A program made the translations under genes and the position numbers. Shown here one piece after another: positions 1 to 44,245 of a stretch of DNA of 44,245 nucleotides. The notes under the pieces were generated by a model. It was not told the DNA's origin. It did no database searches and saw nothing but the letters and a program-made list of their open reading frames with translations. Each line of letters begins with the position of its first letter. Position 1 is the first letter of the stretch. This DNA is from Escherichia phage SM_W22, in the sequence record PP920555.1; one strand, 5' to 3'.

Positions 1-22
1 ATGTTGCCGATGGTCGGCGCAT

Positions 23-595
23 ATGAACAAAAGGGCTTATATCATGGCAGAAATCAAAGTTAAGGGCCGACGCGCCAAACTGGACGGACGAGTAGCAGTA
101 ACCCCGCGCCGTAAACCAGGCGAGCAAACCGAGCACACCAATCTCGGACCTGAAATCGAGTACGGCAAGCGCCGTAAAGGCGGAAAATGTGGACGCCCTA
201 CTGACTACCGATCCGTTTACTGCGACCAGCTTCGCCGCTATTTTGCCGACGCCGACGCCTGGCAGGTAAACTACTCCGATAAAGGCGCTGCGCAAGTAAT
301 CCCCCGCAACAAAATGCCAACCTTCGGTCGATTTGCCGCTGAAATCGGCGTAGGCGTAGCTTGCCTGTACCGCTGGGCGCGAGCACATGAGGAGTTTGCC
401 GAAGCGATGGCGGACGCAATGGAACTGCAGAAAACTTTCCTGATGGAAGCCGGTGGCGTGACCATCGCGGCAGGCTTCGCTACGTTCCTGCTTAAAGCAA
501 ACCACGGCGTCCGCGACGATGTGCCGCTGGATGACGACGAAGATGATAACGGCGACGTCGTAGTGGAACCTACCGGCAAAGGCCAGGGTGAATAA
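23..595 (+). CDS. Terminase small subunit (putative); start may be the ATG at 44
   Basis: Small basic protein with HTH-like segment and acidic C-terminus, directly upstream of and overlapping (TAATG) the large terminase gene. Confidence 0.55.
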   Translation: MNKRAYIMAEIKVKGRRAKLDGRVAVTPRRKPGEQTEHTNLGPEIEYGKRRKGGKCGRPTDYRSVYCDQLRRYFADADAWQVNYSDKGAAQVIPRNKMPTFGRFAAEIGVGVACLYRWARAHEEFAEAMADAMELQKTFLMEAGGVTIAAGFATFLLKANHGVRDDVPLDDDEDDNGDVVVEPTGKGQGE

Positions 596-1980
596 TGCGT
601 AACTATGCGGCAGAACACCGCGCACTGGAACGCGCGATCGCAAAGCGCAACCGACCGCCGCGCCCGACACGCGTTGCGCAGGCCGTCCGCCTTTACCAGC
701 CCGATTGCCTTCCCCACCAGGTTGAACTACTGCGCGACACAAAGACTAAAATCCTCGGCCTGTGTTCCGGCTTCGGCGGTGGAAAGTCGTGGGTCGCTGC
801 GCGTAAGGTCATCCAGCTTTTAACCCTGAACCCCGGTCATGACGGCATCGTTACAGAACCGACTATTCCCCTCCTGGTTAAGATCATGTATCCGGAACTG
901 GAGAAGGCATTCGACGAGGCAGGCTTCCGGTGGAAGTTCAATAAGCAGGACAAGATCTATAACGTGCTTGTGAAAGGCAAATGGACCCGCGTTATCTGTG
1001 AGTCGATGGAGAACTACACCCGCCTTATCGGGGTTAACGCCGCGTGGATTGTTGCCGATGAATTCGATACCACGAAGCAAGACGTTGCGCTGGCGGCGTA
1101 TCACAAATTGCTCGGTCGTCTGCGTGCAGGCTTTGTACGCCAGTTCGTCATAGTGTCCACCCCGGAAGGCTACCGGGCGATGTACCAGATTTTCGAGGTG
1201 GAGAAGGATAGCCAAAAGCGCCTGATCCGGGCGAAGACCACCGACAACCACCATTTACCGGCAGACTTTATCGACACGCTGCGCAGTCAGTACCCGGCTA
1301 ACCTTATTGACGCGTACCTGAACGGCCTGTTTGTCAACCTTACATCGGGCGCGGTATACAAGATGTTTAATCGCGAGGAGAACGCCAGCACCGAAGAAGT
1401 ACAACCGGAAGACACGCTGATTATCGGTATGGACTTTAACGTCACGAAAATGGCGGCGGTCGTGTATGTAAGACGGCAGCGTACCACCGAGAACAAGGAG
1501 TTCCGCGACGAGATTCACGCCGTGGATGAATTCGTGGACCTGTTTGATACCCCGGCTATGATTGAAGCGATCGAGGAGCGCTACCCCGATCATTGCGCTG
1601 CCGGTCGTGTTGTCGTGTACCCGGATAGCAGCGGCAAATCCCGCAAAACGGTTAACGCTTCGTCGTCCGATATCGCGCAACTGGAGGATGCGGGCTTCGA
1701 GGTGGAATACGACAGCGTTAACCCGCCTGTGAAAGACCGATTGATCGCGATGAATACGATGATGTGCAACTCGAAGGGCGTGCGCCAGTATTTTGTCAAC
1801 CTGGATAAATGCCCTACACTAGCGAAATGTCTGGAACAGCAGGTTTACGACCTGAAGAAAGGCGAGCCGGATAAAACCGCCGGTGTGGACCACATGAACG
1901 ATGCCGCGGGTTATCCAATTGCGCACCTGTTCCCTGTGATTCGTCCAATCGCCGTTGTTCCTACCGTAGATTTCTACTAA
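595..1980 (+). CDS. terL: Terminase large subunit
   Basis: 461 aa; Walker A-like GFGGGKS near N-terminus, nuclease-like C-terminal half; position between TerS and portal. Confidence 0.88.
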   Translation: MRNYAAEHRALERAIAKRNRPPRPTRVAQAVRLYQPDCLPHQVELLRDTKTKILGLCSGFGGGKSWVAARKVIQLLTLNPGHDGIVTEPTIPLLVKIMYPELEKAFDEAGFRWKFNKQDKIYNVLVKGKWTRVICESMENYTRLIGVNAAWIVADEFDTTKQDVALAAYHKLLGRLRAGFVRQFVIVSTPEGYRAMYQIFEVEKDSQKRLIRAKTTDNHHLPADFIDTLRSQYPANLIDAYLNGLFVNLTSGAVYKMFNREENASTEEVQPEDTLIIGMDFNVTKMAAVVYVRRQRTTENKEFRDEIHAVDEFVDLFDTPAMIEAIEERYPDHCAAGRVVVYPDSSGKSRKTVNASSSDIAQLEDAGFEVEYDSVNPPVKDRLIAMNTMMCNSKGVRQYFVNLDKCPTLAKCLEQQVYDLKKGEPDKTAGVDHMNDAAGYPIAHLFPVIRPIAVVPTVDFY

Positions 1981-5811: not shown

Positions 5812-5854
5812 TTTTGTGTCCTCGTTGTTGGGGCTTTCGCCCCTGTTGGTTTAG

Positions 5855-6373
5855 TTAAAGTGCTTCTAGAATCTCGTAAAACTTATTTGCCAGCGCTTGG
5901 CGGCGTTCGAATTTTTCAGTGATAACCAATTCCGGGCGGTTAAATAGCTTTGCGTGGGTGTTCCAATTGAGGATTTCCGTTTCCATTATTTTCTTCCTGT
6001 CCAGCGCTTGGCGGCGTTCGAATTTTTCAGTGATAACCAATTCCGGGCGGTTAAATAGCTTTGCGTGGGTGTTCCAATTGAGGATTTCCGTTTCCATTAT
6101 TTTCTTCCTGTTGTAGTCGGTGTTTTTGATGCTAAATTCCTTGATAGCGTCATTAAGAAAATCAGTCATACACTCAACGTCTGTTCTCTTAACTTCGAAC
6201 GTACGGGACTCGATTGGGCTATTTGTGCGAAGTACGACGACTCCGCCGTGGTAGGTGTCGACTACCATATACTTATAAGTCACCCCATCCCACTCCGGAT
6301 CGAAAGGGCGCCCAAATACGTCGTCGGCTTTCCACACTTTCTGGTACGGTGTTTCTTTAATTAATGTTGGCAT
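5855..6373 (-). CDS. Hypothetical protein with internal 37-aa tandem duplication (moron)
   Basis: Track ORF 5855..6826 trimmed to Met at 6373 (upstream part is antisense of scaffold gene region); repeat KKIMETEILNWNTHAKLFNRPELVITEKFERRQAL occurs twice. Confidence 0.55.
   Translation of the reverse strand: MPTLIKETPYQKVWKADDVFGRPFDPEWDGVTYKYMVVDTYHGGVVVLRTNSPIESRTFEVKRTDVECMTDFLNDAIKEFSIKNTDYNRKKIMETEILNWNTHAKLFNRPELVITEKFERRQALDRKKIMETEILNWNTHAKLFNRPELVITEKFERRQALANKFYEILEAL
5890..6111. repeat. Perfect tandem direct repeat, 2 x 111 bp, in frame within minus-strand ORF
   Basis: Bases 5890-6000 and 6001-6111 read identical base for base; duplication also visible in translated ORF. Confidence 0.9.
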
Positions 6374-6401
6374 CTTGTTTACCTTCATATCTCTGTTGGT
6401 G

Positions 6402-6424
6402 TGCAACCAATATATGCAACCAAT
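6402..6424. promoter_or_regulatory. Two direct copies of TGCAACCAAT motif in divergent intergenic region
   Basis: TGCAACCAAT at 6402-6411 and 6415-6424, between minus moron start (6373) and scaffold start (6528). Confidence 0.4.
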
Positions 6425-8447: not shown

Positions 8448-8474
8448 TGGGCGGGCTTATGCCCGCCTTTTTTA
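8448..8474 (+). terminator. Intrinsic terminator after major capsid gene
   Basis: GGCGGGC-ttat-GCCCGCC hairpin followed by T8. Confidence 0.85.
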
Positions 8475-8488
8475 TAGGAGTGAATCTA

Positions 8489-8989
8489 ATGTATGGCGAC
8501 CCGCAAACCTTTGTCGATTATGCCGATGCGCGAGGCATTGAAATTACGCTGGGCGACGCAACGCGACACCTTACCATCGTTAATGACTTCCTTAACGGCA
8601 TCAACTGGATCGGCGAACAGGCGGACCAGACAGGAATAGACGCATGGCCCCGCATCAATTACCCATCGGACGGGAAGCCGGTGCGCGACACGCTAACCGA
8701 AGTCGTGGCGGTAGTGCCCGCCGGGCAGATCGTAGATTTTGCATCAATCCCCATTGCCGTCGAGCAAGCCGTTTACAGGTTGGCGATGTTGGTGGCGGAC
8801 GAGGTCGATATTTCTCCTGTTGGCAGTGGTAAGGAGACTATCCGCGAAACTGTCGGCCCGATCACGATGGAATATGACCCTGCGACGATTGGTAGCGGTG
8901 TCTCGTTCCCGTGGTGGGATGGCTTGCTGGGTCACTGGATTGGCTCAGACGGCAACGCAGCGGGTAATTTTGATGTATTCCGGGGGTAA
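8489..8989 (+). CDS. Putative head-tail connector / head completion protein
   Basis: Track ORF trimmed to Met with AGGAG RBS; position after capsid gene. Confidence 0.4.
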   Translation: MYGDPQTFVDYADARGIEITLGDATRHLTIVNDFLNGINWIGEQADQTGIDAWPRINYPSDGKPVRDTLTEVVAVVPAGQIVDFASIPIAVEQAVYRLAMLVADEVDISPVGSGKETIRETVGPITMEYDPATIGSGVSFPWWDGLLGHWIGSDGNAAGNFDVFRG

Positions 8990-11264: not shown

Positions 11265-11289
11265 GTGTTAATATGGGGCCAGCAAGGCC
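11265..11289 (+). terminator. Intrinsic terminator after major tail protein gene
   Basis: GGGGCC-agcaa-GGCCCC hairpin followed by T8. Confidence 0.8.
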
Positions 11290-11315
11290 CCTTTTTTTTA
11301 TTGGAGAATACTACA

Positions 11316-11993: not shown

Positions 11994-12375
11994 GAAGCGG
12001 GACAGGCGGGACGTCCCGTTTTGTCCCGCCTCTGTAAAACTGCATATCTACTCACTTCCACTGCATAAACTCAAAACGGGACAAGCGGGACGTCCCGTTT
12101 TGTCACGCCCTGTAAATATGCATACCTATGCAGATTTCGTGCATAAACCAAACGGGACAGAAAGCGGGACAAACAAGGGGCGGGACAAAGCGGGACAGCA
12201 CCCCATCCCCGCCAGTGCTGCCGCGGTTTTTAGCCGATCGGGACAGCGGGACAGCACCCCAGTCTTTCAGACTAGACGGGGGTCTATGGCCCCCCTCGTC
12301 TGAGACTGAATAAGGTTTGTTTTGAAATCGCTGATACAATATCCATCGGCAACTGCATAAAAAGGGGACTGCATA
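11994..12375. repeat. Iteron- and palindrome-rich noncoding region (copy A of duplicated element at about 12111-12313)
   Basis: About ten CGGGACA units, perfect palindrome CGGGACGTCCCG twice, CTGCATAA motifs; last roughly 200 bp near-identical to 39447-39654. Confidence 0.75.
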
Positions 12376-15018: not shown

Positions 15019-15052
15019 TAAAATGGCCCTCACTACAACGTGGGGGCTTTTT

Positions 15053-25379: not shown

Positions 25380-25403
25380 TTGCAACCAACCTATTGGTTG
25401 CAA
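25380..25403. promoter_or_regulatory. Palindromic pair of TTGCAACCAA motifs
   Basis: TTGCAACCAA-ccta-TTGGTTGCAA perfect inverted repeat; third partial copy TTGCAACG about 10 bp downstream. Confidence 0.45.
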
Positions 25404-26854: not shown

Positions 26855-26908
26855 CGTGTTGTCTCCAGGTATTAAAAAAGGCGTCCAAACCGGACACCCT
26901 TAAGATAA

Positions 26909-26935
26909 TGCAACCAATATGATTATGCAACCAAT
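26909..26935. promoter_or_regulatory. Two direct copies of TGCAACCAAT
   Basis: Copies at 26909-26918 and 26926-26935 in intergenic gap upstream of minus gene starting at 26854. Confidence 0.4.
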
Positions 26936-29861: not shown

Positions 29862-30140
29862 CTATGCGACCAACTCAGCAACCAATAAATCACAGTCGGC
29901 TATGTTGTCAATAACGCGAACGTCGGCGCCGCGGCGAGCCATCCGCTCATGCTCTCGCACCTGGTGCGGCTTCGGTTTTCCTCCTGGGCGCTTCACTTCG
30001 ACGAATACTATGATGCCGTTGATGATGATAATCAGGTCGGGCGCACCTGCGCGCCCCTCCCATGCCACTTTGCGGCAGAATCCACCCACCGCTTTCACCC
30101 GACGCATCAGGTAGCGTTGAATCTTGCCTTCTGGAGTCAT
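29862..30140 (-). CDS. VRR-NUC domain nuclease
   Basis: GAPDLIII...VFVEVKRPGGKP...Q pattern of PD-(D/E)XK VRR-NUC domain; 92 aa. Confidence 0.65.
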   Translation of the reverse strand: MTPEGKIQRYLMRRVKAVGGFCRKVAWEGRAGAPDLIIIINGIIVFVEVKRPGGKPKPHQVREHERMARRGADVRVIDNIADCDLLVAELVA

Positions 30141-39332: not shown

Positions 39333-39345
39333 ATTCTGCGCGCGT

Positions 39346-39442
39346 TGGTTGCCGATATGTGGATCCCCATATCGCTAAAAGACTAAATTTTGCGCGCATT
39401 GGTTGCCATTTTGAGTGTTTTTATCCAGTCGCATTGGTTGCC
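39346..39442. repeat. Three direct copies of GCGC(G/A)TTGGTTGCC-containing repeat flanking a GGATCC-centred palindrome
   Basis: TAAATTcTGCGCGCgTTGGTTGCC and TAAATTtTGCGCGCaTTGGTTGCC 54 bp apart, third GCATTGGTTGCC copy downstream; GATATG-tggatcccc-CATATC hairpin between. Confidence 0.6.
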
Positions 39443-39446
39443 GTGT

Positions 39447-39654
39447 AGTGTAAATATAATGAATAGTTATGCAGTTTTGCTGCATAAAGTAAGCGGGACA
39501 AAAAGCGGGACAAACAAGGGGCGGGACAAAGCGGGACAGCACCCCCGTCCCGCCAGTGCTGCCGCGGTTTTTAGCCGATCGGGACAGCGGGACAGCACCC
39601 CAGTCTTTCAGACTAGACGGGGGTCAATGGCCCCCCTCGTCTGAGACTGAATAA
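39447..39654. repeat. Copy B of duplicated roughly 205 bp iteron element (GCGGGACA repeats)
   Basis: Aligns by eye at roughly 90-95% identity with 12111-12313, including five GCGGGACA units and a GC-rich terminal hairpin. Confidence 0.75.
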
Positions 39655-39804
39655 AATCCGGAGATTGCAAAATACACGGCAACATGATGCGAAGTGCGGT
39701 CGTCGATGAACTAGGCAACCAATGCGGGTTGTATTATGCTGAGTGAAAAATGCAGTTTGCAGCCACAGCAGATAGCGATCAACTTTTTCATACGCGTGAT
39801 TAAT

Positions 39805-39844
39805 ATTGGTTGCATCCGTGCCAGCACCCTGCTATATTGGTTGC
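39805..39844. promoter_or_regulatory. Two direct copies of ATTGGTTGCA upstream of 39869 gene
   Basis: Copies at 39805-39814 and 39835-39844, 30 bp apart; a further GCAACCAAT at 39714-39723. Confidence 0.4.
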
Positions 39845-39868
39845 ACATCAACATGAGGACTGAACAAA

Positions 39869-41690: not shown

Positions 41691-41725
41691 AGTCCCAGTG
41701 AGCTAAAACTTACTGGGACTTTTTT
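41691..41725 (+). terminator. Hairpin plus T-run immediately upstream of holin gene
   Basis: AGTCCCAGT-12 nt loop-ACTGGGACT perfect 9-bp stem followed by TTTTT, ending at holin ATG. Confidence 0.5.
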
Positions 41726-42926: not shown

Positions 42927-42951
42927 AAGCCCGGTTAATTCCGGGCTTTTT
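42927..42951 (+). terminator. Intrinsic terminator after lysis cassette
   Basis: AGCCCGG-ttaatt-CCGGGCT hairpin followed by T6. Confidence 0.75.
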
Positions 42952-43015: not shown

Positions 43016-44158
43016 ATGCACCCGCAAACTAAAATCACCGACGAGCAATTGATCGCAGAATTGCAATCCGGCACTACCGCGAAAGAGATTGCGAAGAAGT
43101 ACGGCCTTTCCCTACGAAATGTCTACATGCGCAAAGCCCGCCTGTCGAAGAAAGGTATTGGTCATGGTAACGATGCCGTAATCCGTAAGCGCGTTGCCGA
43201 TGGCTTTGGCGTTAAGCGCGTATCCGCCCTGGTGCGCGGCAATGGTGAAGAGGTCATGTCGTGGGTTATCACTGAGCAGGACAAGGAGCGCCAGCTTGAA
43301 GCAATGCGCGCCGTTGTCGAGGGTATGAACAGCGAAATCACACCGGCAGCACCAGTAAGCGCCCCGCCAGTCCCGATCCAGGCACTTGACCTACTTAACC
43401 TGTACACCGTGTCCGACTTCCACCTGGGCATGTTGGCCTGGGGCGAGGAGACTGGCGAAGACTGGGATATGGCGATTGCCGAAGACCTGTTCTACCGCTG
43501 GTTTGTCGAAGCCTTCGCACGCGCACCGGACGCAGGCACCGCCGTAATTAATATTCTCGGTGATATGGCGCACTTTGATAGCCTCGATGCCGTCACCCCA
43601 GCCAGCGGGCACGTACTGGACGCGGATACTCGCTACCAGAAGCTGGTCCGCTACATGATTCGCATGGTGCGCAACGTGGTGGAACTGGCGCTGCAAAAAC
43701 ACCACAAAGTCAAACTGCTAATCGTCCAGGGGAATCATGACGAGTCTGGCATGATTTGGCTGGCTGAGATGTTCAATACTCTGTACGAGAACGAGCCGCG
43801 CGTCGATGTGGATACGTCCCCGGACGTGTACAAAATGGTGCAACACGGCAAGACCACGCTATTCTTCCACCACGGGCATAAGGCGCGTTTTGACGCTATT
43901 GAAACCGTCATGATTTCAAAATTCAGACAAGCGTTCGGATCCAGCGAGTACAGCTACGCGCATGTAGGCCACTTGCACCACCAGAAGATTGTTGAATCCC
44001 GCAACATGATTGTTGAGCAGCACCGGACACTCGCAGCGAAAGACGCATATGCCAGCCGCGGCGGTTGGATGTCCGGTCGTAGTGCCAACGTAATCACCTA
44101 TAGCGCCAACTACGGCGAAGTAGCGCGCTTAACCATTAGCCCGGAAATGTTGAAGTAA
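43016..44158 (+). CDS. HTH domain fused to calcineurin-like metallophosphoesterase
   Basis: N-terminal HTH-like TAKEIAKKYGLSLRNVY; C-terminal GDMAHFD, GNHDE and HHGH metallophosphoesterase motifs. Confidence 0.6.
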   Translation: MHPQTKITDEQLIAELQSGTTAKEIAKKYGLSLRNVYMRKARLSKKGIGHGNDAVIRKRVADGFGVKRVSALVRGNGEEVMSWVITEQDKERQLEAMRAVVEGMNSEITPAAPVSAPPVPIQALDLLNLYTVSDFHLGMLAWGEETGEDWDMAIAEDLFYRWFVEAFARAPDAGTAVINILGDMAHFDSLDAVTPASGHVLDADTRYQKLVRYMIRMVRNVVELALQKHHKVKLLIVQGNHDESGMIWLAEMFNTLYENEPRVDVDTSPDVYKMVQHGKTTLFFHHGHKARFDAIETVMISKFRQAFGSSEYSYAHVGHLHHQKIVESRNMIVEQHRTLAAKDAYASRGGWMSGRSANVITYSANYGEVARLTISPEMLK

Positions 44159-44199
44159 CGGCAGCCAGTAATCCTCCCAGCCTGCCGATTTGGTGGGCT

Positions 44200-44216
44200 T
44201 TTTTGTGCCTGTTATA
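44200..44216 (+). promoter_or_regulatory. Possible promoter (extended -10 TGTTATAAT) reading toward terminase genes across window junction
   Basis: TGnTATAAT-like sequence CTGTTATAATCC near window end; terminase ORF starts at window start. Confidence 0.3.
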
Positions 44217-44245
44217 ATCCCACTTAGATGGCAGGGCCGTCTCCT

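What the first reader, a model, noticed from the sequence alone, without database searches (positions are those of the whole stretch)
44160..44245. Window appears to be a circularly permuted complete genome; promoter-like element reads across the junction
The terminase genes start at the first bases of the window, and the last 45 bp contain an extended -10-like TGTTATAAT oriented toward them. Modules for packaging, structure, replication and lysis are all present within 44.2 kb, so the window likely corresponds to a whole phage genome opened upstream of terS.
Basis: inference. Interest (0 to 1): 0.25.

Follow-up and report, generated by a model that had tools for sequence, protein, structure and literature searches.

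The report
Complete phage genome opened inside leader
The window is one complete genome of an ordinary, well-known type of E. coli virus (Dhillonvirus), cut open by database convention just before its DNA-packaging genes; the cut runs through a conserved terminator, promoter and two-hairpin RNA leader that probably starts transcription of the virus's structural genes.

Summary
Observation confirmed. TGTTATAAT, a perfect extended -10 (TGnTATAAT), lies at 44210-44218 on the + strand and is the only copy in the window. The motif alone is not significant (0.78 expected per window).

Interpretation supported. The window is a complete 44,245-bp Dhillonvirus genome.
- Its last and first bases are adjacent, without gap, in relatives opened elsewhere. 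An 800-nt junction query is one contiguous match in 102 of 156 records.
- Phage bob's own record ends are contiguous inside the window.
- It is absent from 5,426 complete E. coli genomes.
- Published read-end (PhageTerm) analyses of close relatives mostly report headful, circularly permuted DNA.

The opening point is a convention, not a physical end. terS starts at 44 (or 23), not at base 1.

What lies at the junction is a conserved module:
- an intrinsic terminator (44179-44199) whose 3' arm supplies a weak -35;
- the extended -10;
- a two-hairpin 5' leader (44226-44242, and 44245 plus 1-23);
- a ribosome-binding site and terS.

The window boundary cuts hairpin 2. A covariance model built without any Dhillonvirus sequence finds this leader once per genome, upstream of terS, in Dhillonvirus, Jerseyvirus, CR01-like Guernseyvirinae, PSP2-22-like and Eiauvirus phages. 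Covariation is strong and there is no Rfam match. Its function is unknown.

The leader RNA is a modest new lead.

The parts
43016..44158 (+). Last gene of the window: a calcineurin-like phosphoesterase / DNA repair exonuclease. It ends the rightward early/middle gene block.
   Evidence: It matches PHROG 704 at E = 2.9e-161. It has weak Pfam Metallophos hits. The homologous gene is annotated this way in bob, welsh and UDS3lw.
44179..44205 (+). Intrinsic terminator: hairpin AGCCTGCC-GATTT-GGTGGGCT followed by TTTTTT.
   Evidence: The terminator scan finds it. It folds at -12.3 kcal/mol, z = -2.27. The homologous site is annotated as a terminator in WF5505 and CS16. The 5' arm varies only in ways that keep pairing (U-G to C-G, G-U to A-U), while the 3' arm is invariant. 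A terminator directly upstream of the promoter is also seen in eiAU, SE2 and CR01.
44190..44195 (+). Weak -35-like hexamer TTGGTG, 17 nt upstream of TATAAT. It lies inside the 3' arm of the terminator stem.
   Evidence: Read directly from the sequence. It is invariant in 22 of 24 junction sequences. Its role as a -35 is inferred.
44210..44218 (+). Extended -10 element TGTTATAAT (TG at 44210-44211, TATAAT at 44213-44218). The predicted transcription start is about 44224-44226 (inferred).
   Evidence: It is unique in the window. A perfect TGnTATAAT lies 78-79 nt upstream of the terS ATG in 24 of 24 junction sequences, and was re-created in the diverged L015/L041 lineage. TATAATC or TACAATC sits at the same place in four other phage groups.
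44226..44242 (+). Leader hairpin 1: AGATGGC-AGG-GCCGTCT. It starts at or within 2 nt of the predicted transcription start. The loop sequence YAGGG is conserved across clades.
   Evidence: Predicted by folding. Its pairs are 100% kept in 16 Dhillonvirus variants, with one compensatory pair. Across clades, 5 of its 8 pairs show compensatory changes, and there are many G-U pairs, which are specific to the sense strand.
44245..44245 (+). First base of leader hairpin 2 (the lower stem pairs 44245 with 23). The window boundary falls inside this hairpin.
   Evidence: Mapped from the structure-aware alignment A6 onto window coordinates.
1..23 (+). The rest of leader hairpin 2. The lower stem pairs 1-3 with 20-22. 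The upper stem is GCCGA (6-10) / TCGGC (14-18). The loop is TGG (11-13). The core GA-UGG-UC is invariant.
   Evidence: This stretch is invariant in all Dhillonvirus junctions. Across clades the stem covaries (CCGATGGTCGG, CTGATGGTCAG, ATGATGGTCAT, TGGATGGTCCA) around a fixed loop. The covariance model R1, built without Dhillonvirus, hits it at 31 bits, E about 5e-6.
31..35 (+). Ribosome-binding site AAGGG, 8 nt before the ATG at 44.
   Evidence: Read from the sequence. It is conserved in the junction alignment.
44..595 (+). terS, the small terminase subunit. The longest ORF starts at 23.
   Evidence: It matches PHROG 3064 at E = 2.2e-73. It has weak Pfam GP3_package and Sf6_terminase hits. The gene is annotated from the homologous ATG (window position 44) in SM_A8, bob and UDS3lw.
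595..1980 (+). terL, the large terminase subunit, of the T4/P22-like type.
   Evidence: Pfam Terminase_6N (E = 3.2e-13) and Terminase_6C (E = 5.2e-07) match. PHROGs 10250 and 2 match.

Best explanation
The window is one complete genome of a virulent Dhillonvirus (HK578/SO-1-like) coliphage. It is a circular-map assembly linearised by convention 43 nt upstream of terS.

In virions the DNA is most likely packaged by the headful mechanism, and so is circularly permuted and terminally redundant. The window ends are therefore not physical ends.

The 130 nt that straddle the artificial junction form one conserved expression module:
1. An intrinsic terminator ends rightward transcription of the preceding early/middle block.
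2. Overlapping it is a sigma-70 promoter with a weak -35 and a perfect extended -10.
3. The transcript starts at about 44224-44226 and begins with two hairpins (44226-44242, and 44245 plus 1-23).
4. These are followed by the ribosome-binding site, terS and the 24-kb + strand packaging and morphogenesis operon.

Shown: contiguity of the ends, completeness, conservation of the motifs, and covariation of the hairpins. Inferred: promoter activity, the start site, and the role of the leader.

My estimates for the separate steps:
- complete genome: 0.97;
- headful, permuted virions: 0.85;
- functional promoter: 0.75;
- real sense-strand RNA structure: 0.85.

For the role of the leader I commit to a 5'-terminal stabilising and regulatory leader of the late mRNA, recognised through its conserved loops (about 0.4). 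Alternatives are processive antitermination (about 0.25), translational control of terS (about 0.15) and a DNA-level site (about 0.1).
For: Identity. 156 phage records, nearly all Dhillonvirus, match both ends of the window at 90-98% identity.

Junction:
- An 800-nt query made of the last 400 and first 400 bases is a single contiguous match in 102 of 156 records.
- A 174-nt junction query is 100% identical and ungapped in bob and UDS3lw.

Reciprocal closure. The window maps colinearly around the whole of bob, and bob's record ends (45256|1) map to window 30504|30505. UDS3lw behaves the same way.

No terminal repeat: there is no end overlap of 8 bases or more.

Size. 11 metagenome contigs are 43.7-45.0 kb, with terS at scattered positions.

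Not a prophage.

Packaging type:
- TerL matches Terminase_6N/6C, and TerS resembles P22 gp3 and Sf6 small terminase.
- PhageTerm reports headful or permuted DNA for Opt-212, UDS3lw, BF9 and 4 of 5 bovine isolates.

Promoter:
- The perfect TGnTATAAT is unique in the window.
- It is kept in 24 of 24 junctions at a fixed distance from terS, including a re-created copy.
- No other phage-type promoter motif lies on the + strand of the 24-kb operon.

Leader:
- The model R1, built only from CR01-like Guernseyvirinae, Jerseyvirus and PSP2-22-like sequences, hits Dhillonvirus, eiAU and L073 once per genome, on the terS strand.
- 95.6% of cells are paired, against 83.1% in shuffles (0 of 500 shuffles reach it) and 18-57% in slid controls.
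- 10 of 17 pairs show compensatory changes.
- RNAalifold predicts the same two hairpins.
Against: - There are no reads, so terminal redundancy and permutation of this phage's own virion DNA are not shown.
- One paper reports a 10-nt 5' cos end for the relative EE09, and one bovine isolate is called 'fixed'.
- The motif alone is expected 0.78 times per window, the -35 is poor, and the generic scan misses the promoter.
- No transcription start has been mapped in any relative, and I found no paper on it.
- The leader fold energy of a single sequence is unremarkable (z = -0.96 and -0.37).
- Alignment A6 is fitted to the model, and the clades are few, so covarying cells are not independent events.
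- A constitutive sigma-70 promoter does not by itself explain late timing.
Confidence: 0.85

Rival explanations
1. The window ends are real physical ends, either cohesive ends or a fixed pac cut, located just upstream of terS.
For: - Many GenBank relatives open within the same 130 nt. EP23, SO-1 and others start exactly at TATAAT; SM_A8, KS_S9 and Dru_SM5 start at window base 1.
- One bovine isolate that starts at TATAAT is listed as having 'fixed' termini.
- In SPP1-type phages the pac site lies at the promoter and 5' end of the small terminase gene (my own knowledge).
Against: - At least four different opening points occur within those 130 nt. Two of them are simply terS ATG codons, which is typical of convention.
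- The junction is read through in 102 records and in all 11 metagenome contigs.
- There is no terminal repeat.
- The only published cos claim lies elsewhere, at window 26897-26906.
Confidence: 0.05
2. TGTTATAAT is a conserved but non-promoter sequence. On this view, terS and the late operon are transcribed by read-through from upstream promoters (for example the ATTGGTTGCA-type promoter at about 39805-39846).
For: - The motif is expected by chance about once per window.
- The -35 is weak and buried in a terminator stem.
- The upstream genes are on the same strand, so read-through is possible.
- No transcription start data exist.
Against: - Three terminators lie between the upstream promoter and terS: 41691-41720, 42927-42948 and 44179-44199.
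- The -10 is kept, or re-created, at a fixed distance in 24 of 24 junctions.
- TATAAT or TACAAT followed by C occupies the same place, right after a terminator and right before the hairpins, in four other phage groups whose flanking sequence is otherwise different.
Confidence: 0.15
3. The two inverted repeats act as double-stranded DNA, either as a binding site for a regulator or as the TerS recognition (pac) site, and not as RNA hairpins.
For: - They lie between the promoter and terS, where operators and some pac sites lie.
- The two half-sites of a palindromic operator can also appear to covary when protein specificity drifts between clades.
- The upper stem of hairpin 2 contains only Watson-Crick pairs.
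Against: - Hairpin 1 has many G-U pairs (for example U-G in 16 and 11 sequences at two positions). These would be A-C mismatches on the other strand and asymmetries in a palindrome.
- The invariant centre GATGGTC is not itself palindromic, whereas the arms vary freely. This is the opposite of an operator.
- The stem bulge moves from the 5' side to the 3' side between clades.
- The reverse strand scores about 15 bits against about 90 bits.
Confidence: 0.1
4. The window is a fragment or a prophage, with more phage or host DNA beyond its ends.
For: None was found.
Against: - In relatives the ends join each other, with no extra base.
- The size equals that of the complete relatives.
- There is no match in complete E. 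coli genomes or in species-representative genomes.
- I saw no integrase among the proteins I scanned or in the bob and UDS3lw annotations.
Confidence: 0.01

Closest known systems
Dhillonvirus phages (HK578, SO-1, EP23, bob, UDS3lw and others)
   Same: - 92-98% nucleotide identity in the regions compared, with colinear gene order around the whole circle.
- The same size (about 44 kb), GC content (54.4%) and lack of tRNA genes.
- An identical junction module: 174 of 174 nt match in bob and UDS3lw.
   Different: Only the usual mosaic differences:
- the tail-fibre region at about 21.6-23.7 kb;
- small genes near 5.8-6.4 kb and 39.9-41.4 kb;
- this phage lacks the roughly 70-residue extra gene that some relatives carry between the phosphoesterase gene and the terminator.
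P22/Sf6/P1-type headful (pac) packaging
   Same: - TerL is of the Terminase_6 type, and TerS resembles P22 gp3 and Sf6 gp1.
- Relatives assemble as circles.
- PhageTerm reports headful or permuted DNA.
   Different: - The pac site is unmapped.
- No solved terminase is close enough to be found by sequence.
- One relative was reported as 5' cos.
HK022 put RNA (a promoter-proximal double hairpin that makes RNA polymerase terminator-resistant; PMC8632103)
   Same: - Two adjacent hairpins separated by 1-2 nt, in the nascent transcript just after a promoter.
- They sit at the head of a long operon that contains strong internal terminators: after the capsid gene (8449), after the major tail gene (11275) and after the tape measure gene (15025).
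   Different: - The two-hairpin RNA is shorter, about 48 nt against about 65 nt.
- It sits at the very 5' end of the transcript.
- My model finds nothing in the HK022 genome.
- Antitermination has not been tested. The resemblance is one of layout only.
5'-terminal stabiliser hairpins of E. coli mRNAs (ompA type; my own knowledge)
   Same: Hairpin 1 begins 0-2 nt from the predicted 5' end in every clade. This is the arrangement that protects against 5'-end-dependent decay.
   Different: Stabilisers need only a structure. Here the loop sequences (YAGGG, and GA-UGG-UC) are conserved across clades, and there is a second hairpin, which suggests specific recognition.
Lambda late promoter PR' with its Q-loading site (my own knowledge)
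   Same: A single sigma-70 promoter at the head of the late operon, with conserved signals in the first transcribed bases.
   Different: - No Q homologue was identified.
- There is no -10-like pause element.
- No terminator follows the leader; the terminator lies upstream instead.

Membership tests
Genus Dhillonvirus | High nucleotide identity over most of the genome to members of the genus (the genus threshold of about 70% is from my own knowledge of ICTV practice). | tested here: met
   95.5% of the window aligns to phage bob, in blocks of mostly 77-96% identity (one short block at 68%). The two window ends match 156 Dhillonvirus records at 90-98%.
Genus Dhillonvirus | Genome of about 42-47 kb, about 54.5% GC, no tRNA genes (as described in PMC10059673 and PMC6563267). 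| tested here: met
   44,245 bp, 54.4% GC and no tRNA genes.
Complete genome with a circular map | The two ends of the record are adjacent in independently assembled relatives, and the relatives' ends are adjacent in this record. | tested here: met
   
Headful (pac) packaging with circular permutation | Large terminase of a headful-type clade. | tested here: inconclusive
   Pfam Terminase_6N/6C match and TerS resembles P22 gp3, which is consistent. No phylogeny against terminases with known ends was made here. A published tree groups a Dhillonvirus TerL with that of P1.
Headful (pac) packaging with circular permutation | Virion DNA ends spread around the genome, with terminal redundancy. | not testable with these tools
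   No reads are available. Relatives are reported as headful or permuted, with one 5' cos report and one 'fixed' report.
Sigma-70 extended -10 promoter | TGnTATAAT upstream of a gene and oriented towards it. | tested here: met
   The motif lies at 44210-44218 on the + strand, 79 nt before the terS ATG, and is conserved in 24 of 24 junctions.
Sigma-70 extended -10 promoter | A primary transcript 5' end 6-8 nt downstream of the -10. | not testable with these tools
   No transcript data were found.
Intrinsic terminator | A GC-rich hairpin followed by a U run. | tested here: met
   The hairpin at 44179-44199 is followed by TTTTTT. The homologous site is annotated as a terminator in WF5505.
HK022 put RNA | Sequence and structure similarity to putL/putR. 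| tested here: not met
   Model R1, run with filters off, gives no hit at E up to 10 in the HK022 genome. The test runs in one direction only: no put model was searched against the leader.
HK022 put RNA | A double hairpin in the nascent RNA that is required for read-through of terminators. | not testable with these tools
   The double hairpin is present and covaries. The activity is unknown.
Any Rfam family | A match to a curated covariance model. | tested here: not met
   There is no match at E up to 1 on the junction of bob, nor on the leader itself in the eiAU, SE2, PSP2-22, CR01 and L073 loci. In L053 only weak sub-threshold matches fall outside the leader: on the eiAU terminator (319-410) and one at 1515-1560. 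Nothing in the window reaches a gathering score.

The most novel reading that the evidence does not exclude
The double-hairpin leader that the window boundary cuts would be a new processive antitermination RNA. It would work either alone, like put, or by binding a factor, like nut.

Only transcripts started at the insulated terS promoter carry it. It would license RNA polymerase to read through the strong internal terminators after the capsid, major tail and tape measure genes of the 24-kb late operon.

It would be shared by several hundred sequenced virulent enterobacterial siphoviruses (Dhillonvirus, Jerseyvirus and other Guernseyvirinae, Eiauvirus). I know of no described late-transcription control for these phages, and my searches found none.
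Probability: 0.22. Interest if true: 0.7.

Novelty: new member of a known kind. Interest (0 to 1): 0.3.

Why it matters
For the finding as written, it matters little. It confirms that the record is a whole genome of a well-sampled genus, and that its ends are a bookkeeping choice. This is useful mainly as a warning: features spanning the artificial junction are invisible to linear scans. My own model finds nothing in the linear window.

The by-product is more useful. It is a conserved module of terminator, promoter and two-hairpin leader at the head of the late operon. It shows strong covariation, conserved loop sequences and no Rfam entry, and it is shared by several genera that include widely used therapeutic and model coliphages and Salmonella phages.

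It gives a concrete, easily testable handle on how these phages express their structural genes. I know of no described late-transcription control for these genera. It also gives a defined promoter and leader cassette for engineering them.

Tried and rejected
- The generic sigma-70 scan over the whole window gave promoter counts no higher than shuffles and missed the junction promoter.
- A search for terminal redundancy found none.
- Sequence searches of TerL and TerS against solved structures found nothing usable.
- Rfam found nothing on the junction, on other clades or on the whole window.
- The single-sequence fold of the leader is not better than shuffles. The structure rests on covariation only.
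- A plain MAFFT alignment across clades (A3) put GATGGTC one column out of register, so I did not use it for pair counts. I used a model-based alignment instead.
- A lambda boxA-like reading of CGCTCT in CR01-type leaders was rejected, because the sequence is not conserved in the other clades.
- A CsrA-site reading of the loops was rejected, because GGA is absent from most clades.
- Literature searches found no description of promoters or leaders in these genera.
- I could not decide whether the shared record start at window 39766 is a real pac end or a copied convention.
- I did not use the large protein searches or structure prediction, because the question did not need them.

Full report
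**What is at the coordinates**

The last ORF of the window, a phosphoesterase / DNA repair exonuclease, ends at 44158. Downstream come:
- a terminator-like hairpin at 44179-44199, followed by TTTTTT (fold -12.3 kcal/mol, z = -2.27);
- TGTTATAAT at 44210-44218, a perfect extended -10 of the form TGnTATAAT.

This is the only such motif on either strand. The motif alone is unremarkable, since 0.78 copies are expected per window. The only -35 candidate, TTGGTG at a 17-nt spacing, lies in the 3' arm of the terminator, which is why the generic scan does not list a promoter.

The window starts with 43 nt of leader, not with terS. The longest terS ORF starts at 23. The ATG at 44 has a ribosome-binding site (AAGGG at 31-35), and the homologous ATG is the annotated terS start in SM_A8, bob and UDS3lw.

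**Is it a whole genome?**

Both ends of the window match 156 phage records, almost all Dhillonvirus, at 90-98% identity.

The junction is contiguous in relatives:
- In records opened elsewhere, the base matching window 44245 is followed directly by the base matching window 1. Examples are welsh 34197|34198 and BEK2-2 32891|32892.
- An 800-nt query made of the last 400 plus the first 400 bases is one contiguous match in 102 of 156 records.
- A 174-nt junction query is 100% identical, without gaps, in bob and UDS3lw.

A local BLAST shows the window colinear with bob around the whole circle. Bob's own ends (45256|1) fall at window 30504|30505, and the ends of UDS3lw fall at about 39762-39766. Each record therefore closes the other.

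Further support:
- The window has no terminal overlap of 8 bases or more.
- Eleven metagenome contigs carrying the same terS are 43.7-45.0 kb long, with terS at scattered positions.
- No relative of TerS occurs in 185,579 species-representative genomes, and the first 4 kb has no match in 5,426 complete E. coli genomes.
- Packaging, head, tail, replication and lysis genes are all present.
- There are no tRNA genes.

**Are the ends physical?**

No evidence says so. Relatives open their records at four or more points within the same 130 nt:
- at TATAAT (EP23, SO-1, JLBYU60, bov25_1D);
- at window base 1 (SM_A8, KS_S9, Dru_SM5);
- at the ATG at 23 (HK578, EC115);
- at the ATG at 44 (the BASEL collection phages).

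PMC9022532 says that such genomes assembled as circles, that PhageTerm predicted headful packaging for Opt-212, and that the records were therefore oriented with the small terminase first. Headful or permuted DNA is also reported for UDS3lw, BF9 and four of five bovine isolates.

The terminase type agrees: TerL matches Terminase_6N/6C and TerS resembles P22 gp3 and Sf6. A published tree groups a Dhillonvirus TerL with that of P1.

There are two dissenting reports. EE09 was reported with a 10-nt 5' cos end, ATCTTAAGGG. That sequence lies at window 26897-26906, far from the junction. One bovine isolate is called 'fixed'. Without reads, the permutation of this phage's own DNA remains an inference.

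**Is the promoter real?**

Within the genus, all 24 junction sequences I could read keep a perfect TGnTATAAT 78-79 nt before the terS ATG. Some of these are copies of the same GenBank records.
- Twenty-two share an invariant block running from the terminator's 3' arm to the -10. This holds even where the upstream gene differs, because some relatives carry an extra gene of about 70 codons there.
- In the diverged lineage L015/L041, the old site reads TGCAATTCT and a new TGATATAAT lies at the same distance from terS.
- The terminator's 5' arm varies only in pair-preserving ways.

On the + strand of the 24-kb operon there is no copy of the phage's other promoter-like motif. Three terminators separate terS from the nearest upstream promoter of that kind.

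I therefore rate promoter function at about 0.75. The transcription start (about 44224-44226) is inferred.

The bases after the -10 form two hairpins, 44226-44242 and 44245 plus 1-23. The window boundary cuts the second one.

TerS homologues at 30-50% identity occur in 453 further phage records, mainly Salmonella and Escherichia phages. Upstream of terS in eiAU, SE2 and CR01 the same order recurs: terminator, TATAAT or TACAAT followed by C, hairpin 1 with loop YAGGG, hairpin 2 with the invariant core GA-UGG-UC, ribosome-binding site, ATG. PSP2-22 shows the same order from the -10 onward, but there the upstream neighbour is terL and I did not check for a terminator. The stem sequences differ between clades.

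I built a covariance model from CR01-like Guernseyvirinae, Jerseyvirus and PSP2-22-like leaders only.
- It finds one hit per genome, on the terS strand and at the expected place, in Dhillonvirus (31 bits, E about 5e-6), eiAU (28 bits) and another clade, L073 (34.5 bits).
- On the resulting alignment, 95.6% of cells pair, against 83.1% in shuffles (0 of 500 reach it) and 18-57% when partners are slid.
- 10 of 17 pairs show changes on both sides.
- RNAalifold predicts the same two hairpins on its own.
- Frequent G-U pairs in hairpin 1, a conserved non-palindromic loop with free arms, and a bulge that changes sides all point to a sense-strand RNA rather than a DNA operator.

Rfam has no match. 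The model finds nothing in HK022, so the leader shows no detectable similarity to the put sites by this test. It also finds nothing in the linear window, because the ends split the element.

Caveats: the alignment is fitted to the model, the clades are few, and single-sequence fold energies are ordinary.

**How it most likely works**

- Shown: the layout and its conservation.
- Inferred: rightward early/middle transcription stops at the 44179 terminator. RNA polymerase starts afresh at the overlapping promoter. The new transcript begins, with 0-2 unpaired bases, in hairpin 1 and runs across the artificial junction into terS and the morphogenesis operon.

The constant position at the very 5' end favours a protective 5' leader. 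The conserved loops and the second hairpin suggest recognition by some factor. I give this reading about 0.4.

The operon contains strong terminators directly after the capsid gene (8449-8468), the major tail gene (11275-11291) and the tape measure gene (15025-15048). The terminator after the capsid gene abuts the next gene, and no promoter-motif copy lies on this strand downstream of any of the three. An antitermination role in the manner of put or nut (PMC8632103) is therefore plausible, at about 0.25, but untested.

**Verdict**

As stated, it is ordinary and already known for the genus. The added value is the conserved leader RNA, a modest but testable new lead.

Noticed in passing
window 12118-12313 and 39459-39654: A 196-bp direct repeat at 93% identity, rich in GCGGGACA (13 exact copies in the window against 2.3 expected; 4 to 5 in each repeat copy). 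One copy lies in the unannotated gap before the tape measure gene. The other lies in the 540-bp non-coding gap after the helicase-primase gene. Both copies also cross-match in bob and UDS3lw. It could be an iteron-like origin or a regulator-binding array.
   Followed up: partly
window 39344-39844, 6403-6424, 26910-26935, 25382-25401, 29866-29886, 36526, 22514, 40543: The motif ATTGGTTGC(A) has 14 exact copies, and 26 with at most 1 mismatch against 12.3 expected (0 of 100 shuffles reach this). The copies cluster in intergenic gaps on the strand of the downstream genes. Paired copies can form TTGCAt-N17-TATATTGGTTGCA, for example at 39809-39846. This looks like a second, phage-specific class of promoter or operator for early/middle genes. 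No exact copy lies on the + strand of the late operon; one 1-mismatch copy lies inside a gene at 8888.
   Followed up: partly
window 39766: Five GenBank relatives from different laboratories (UDS3lw, PTXU06, BMA1, PEC9, Pandora71) begin at exactly the homologous base, CAGCAGATAGCG..., about 100 nt before their first gene. The UDS3lw authors ran PhageTerm and report a preferred pac site. This may be the real start of the packaging series, or a copied convention.
   Followed up: partly
window 26897-26906 (- strand): The 10-nt '5' cos' sequence ATCTTAAGGG reported for relative EE09 is present here. It lies 4 nt downstream of a tandem ATTGGTTGCA promoter-like pair, that is, at a likely -10 and transcription start. 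This makes me suspect a read-start artefact or a nick rather than a cohesive end.
   Followed up: partly
window 5890-6111: A perfect tandem duplication of 111 bp (two copies, 100% identical) lies in a region (5832-6393) that has no match in bob. It could be a real recent duplication or an assembly artefact.
   Followed up: no
between the phosphoesterase gene and the terminator, e.g. L051 191-403 (WF5505); also AV129, BF9, KS_S9: Some relatives carry an extra gene of about 70 codons here. It is annotated as a transcriptional regulator in AV129 and as an HTH LuxR-type domain protein in BF9, is similar to SO-1 gp59 in WF5505, and overlaps the phosphoesterase stop codon in WF5505 and KS_S9. The window lacks it. 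The terminator-promoter module stays downstream of the insertion.
   Followed up: partly
L117, L118, L122, L095 (SETP3-type Jerseyvirus records), positions 1-31: Several Jerseyvirus reference records also open inside the same leader, between hairpin 1 and hairpin 2. In SE2 (L054), an ATG inside hairpin 2 is in frame with terS, so these records apparently start at the longest terS ORF. The same kind of artificial cut as in the window therefore hides the element in other genera too.
   Followed up: partly
PQ843332.1 (Escherichia phage P-GXEC-L2P5, 88,607 bp): This record is about twice the genome length and holds the junction sequence two to three times. It is probably a dimer-length assembly of a circular or concatemeric genome.
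   Followed up: no
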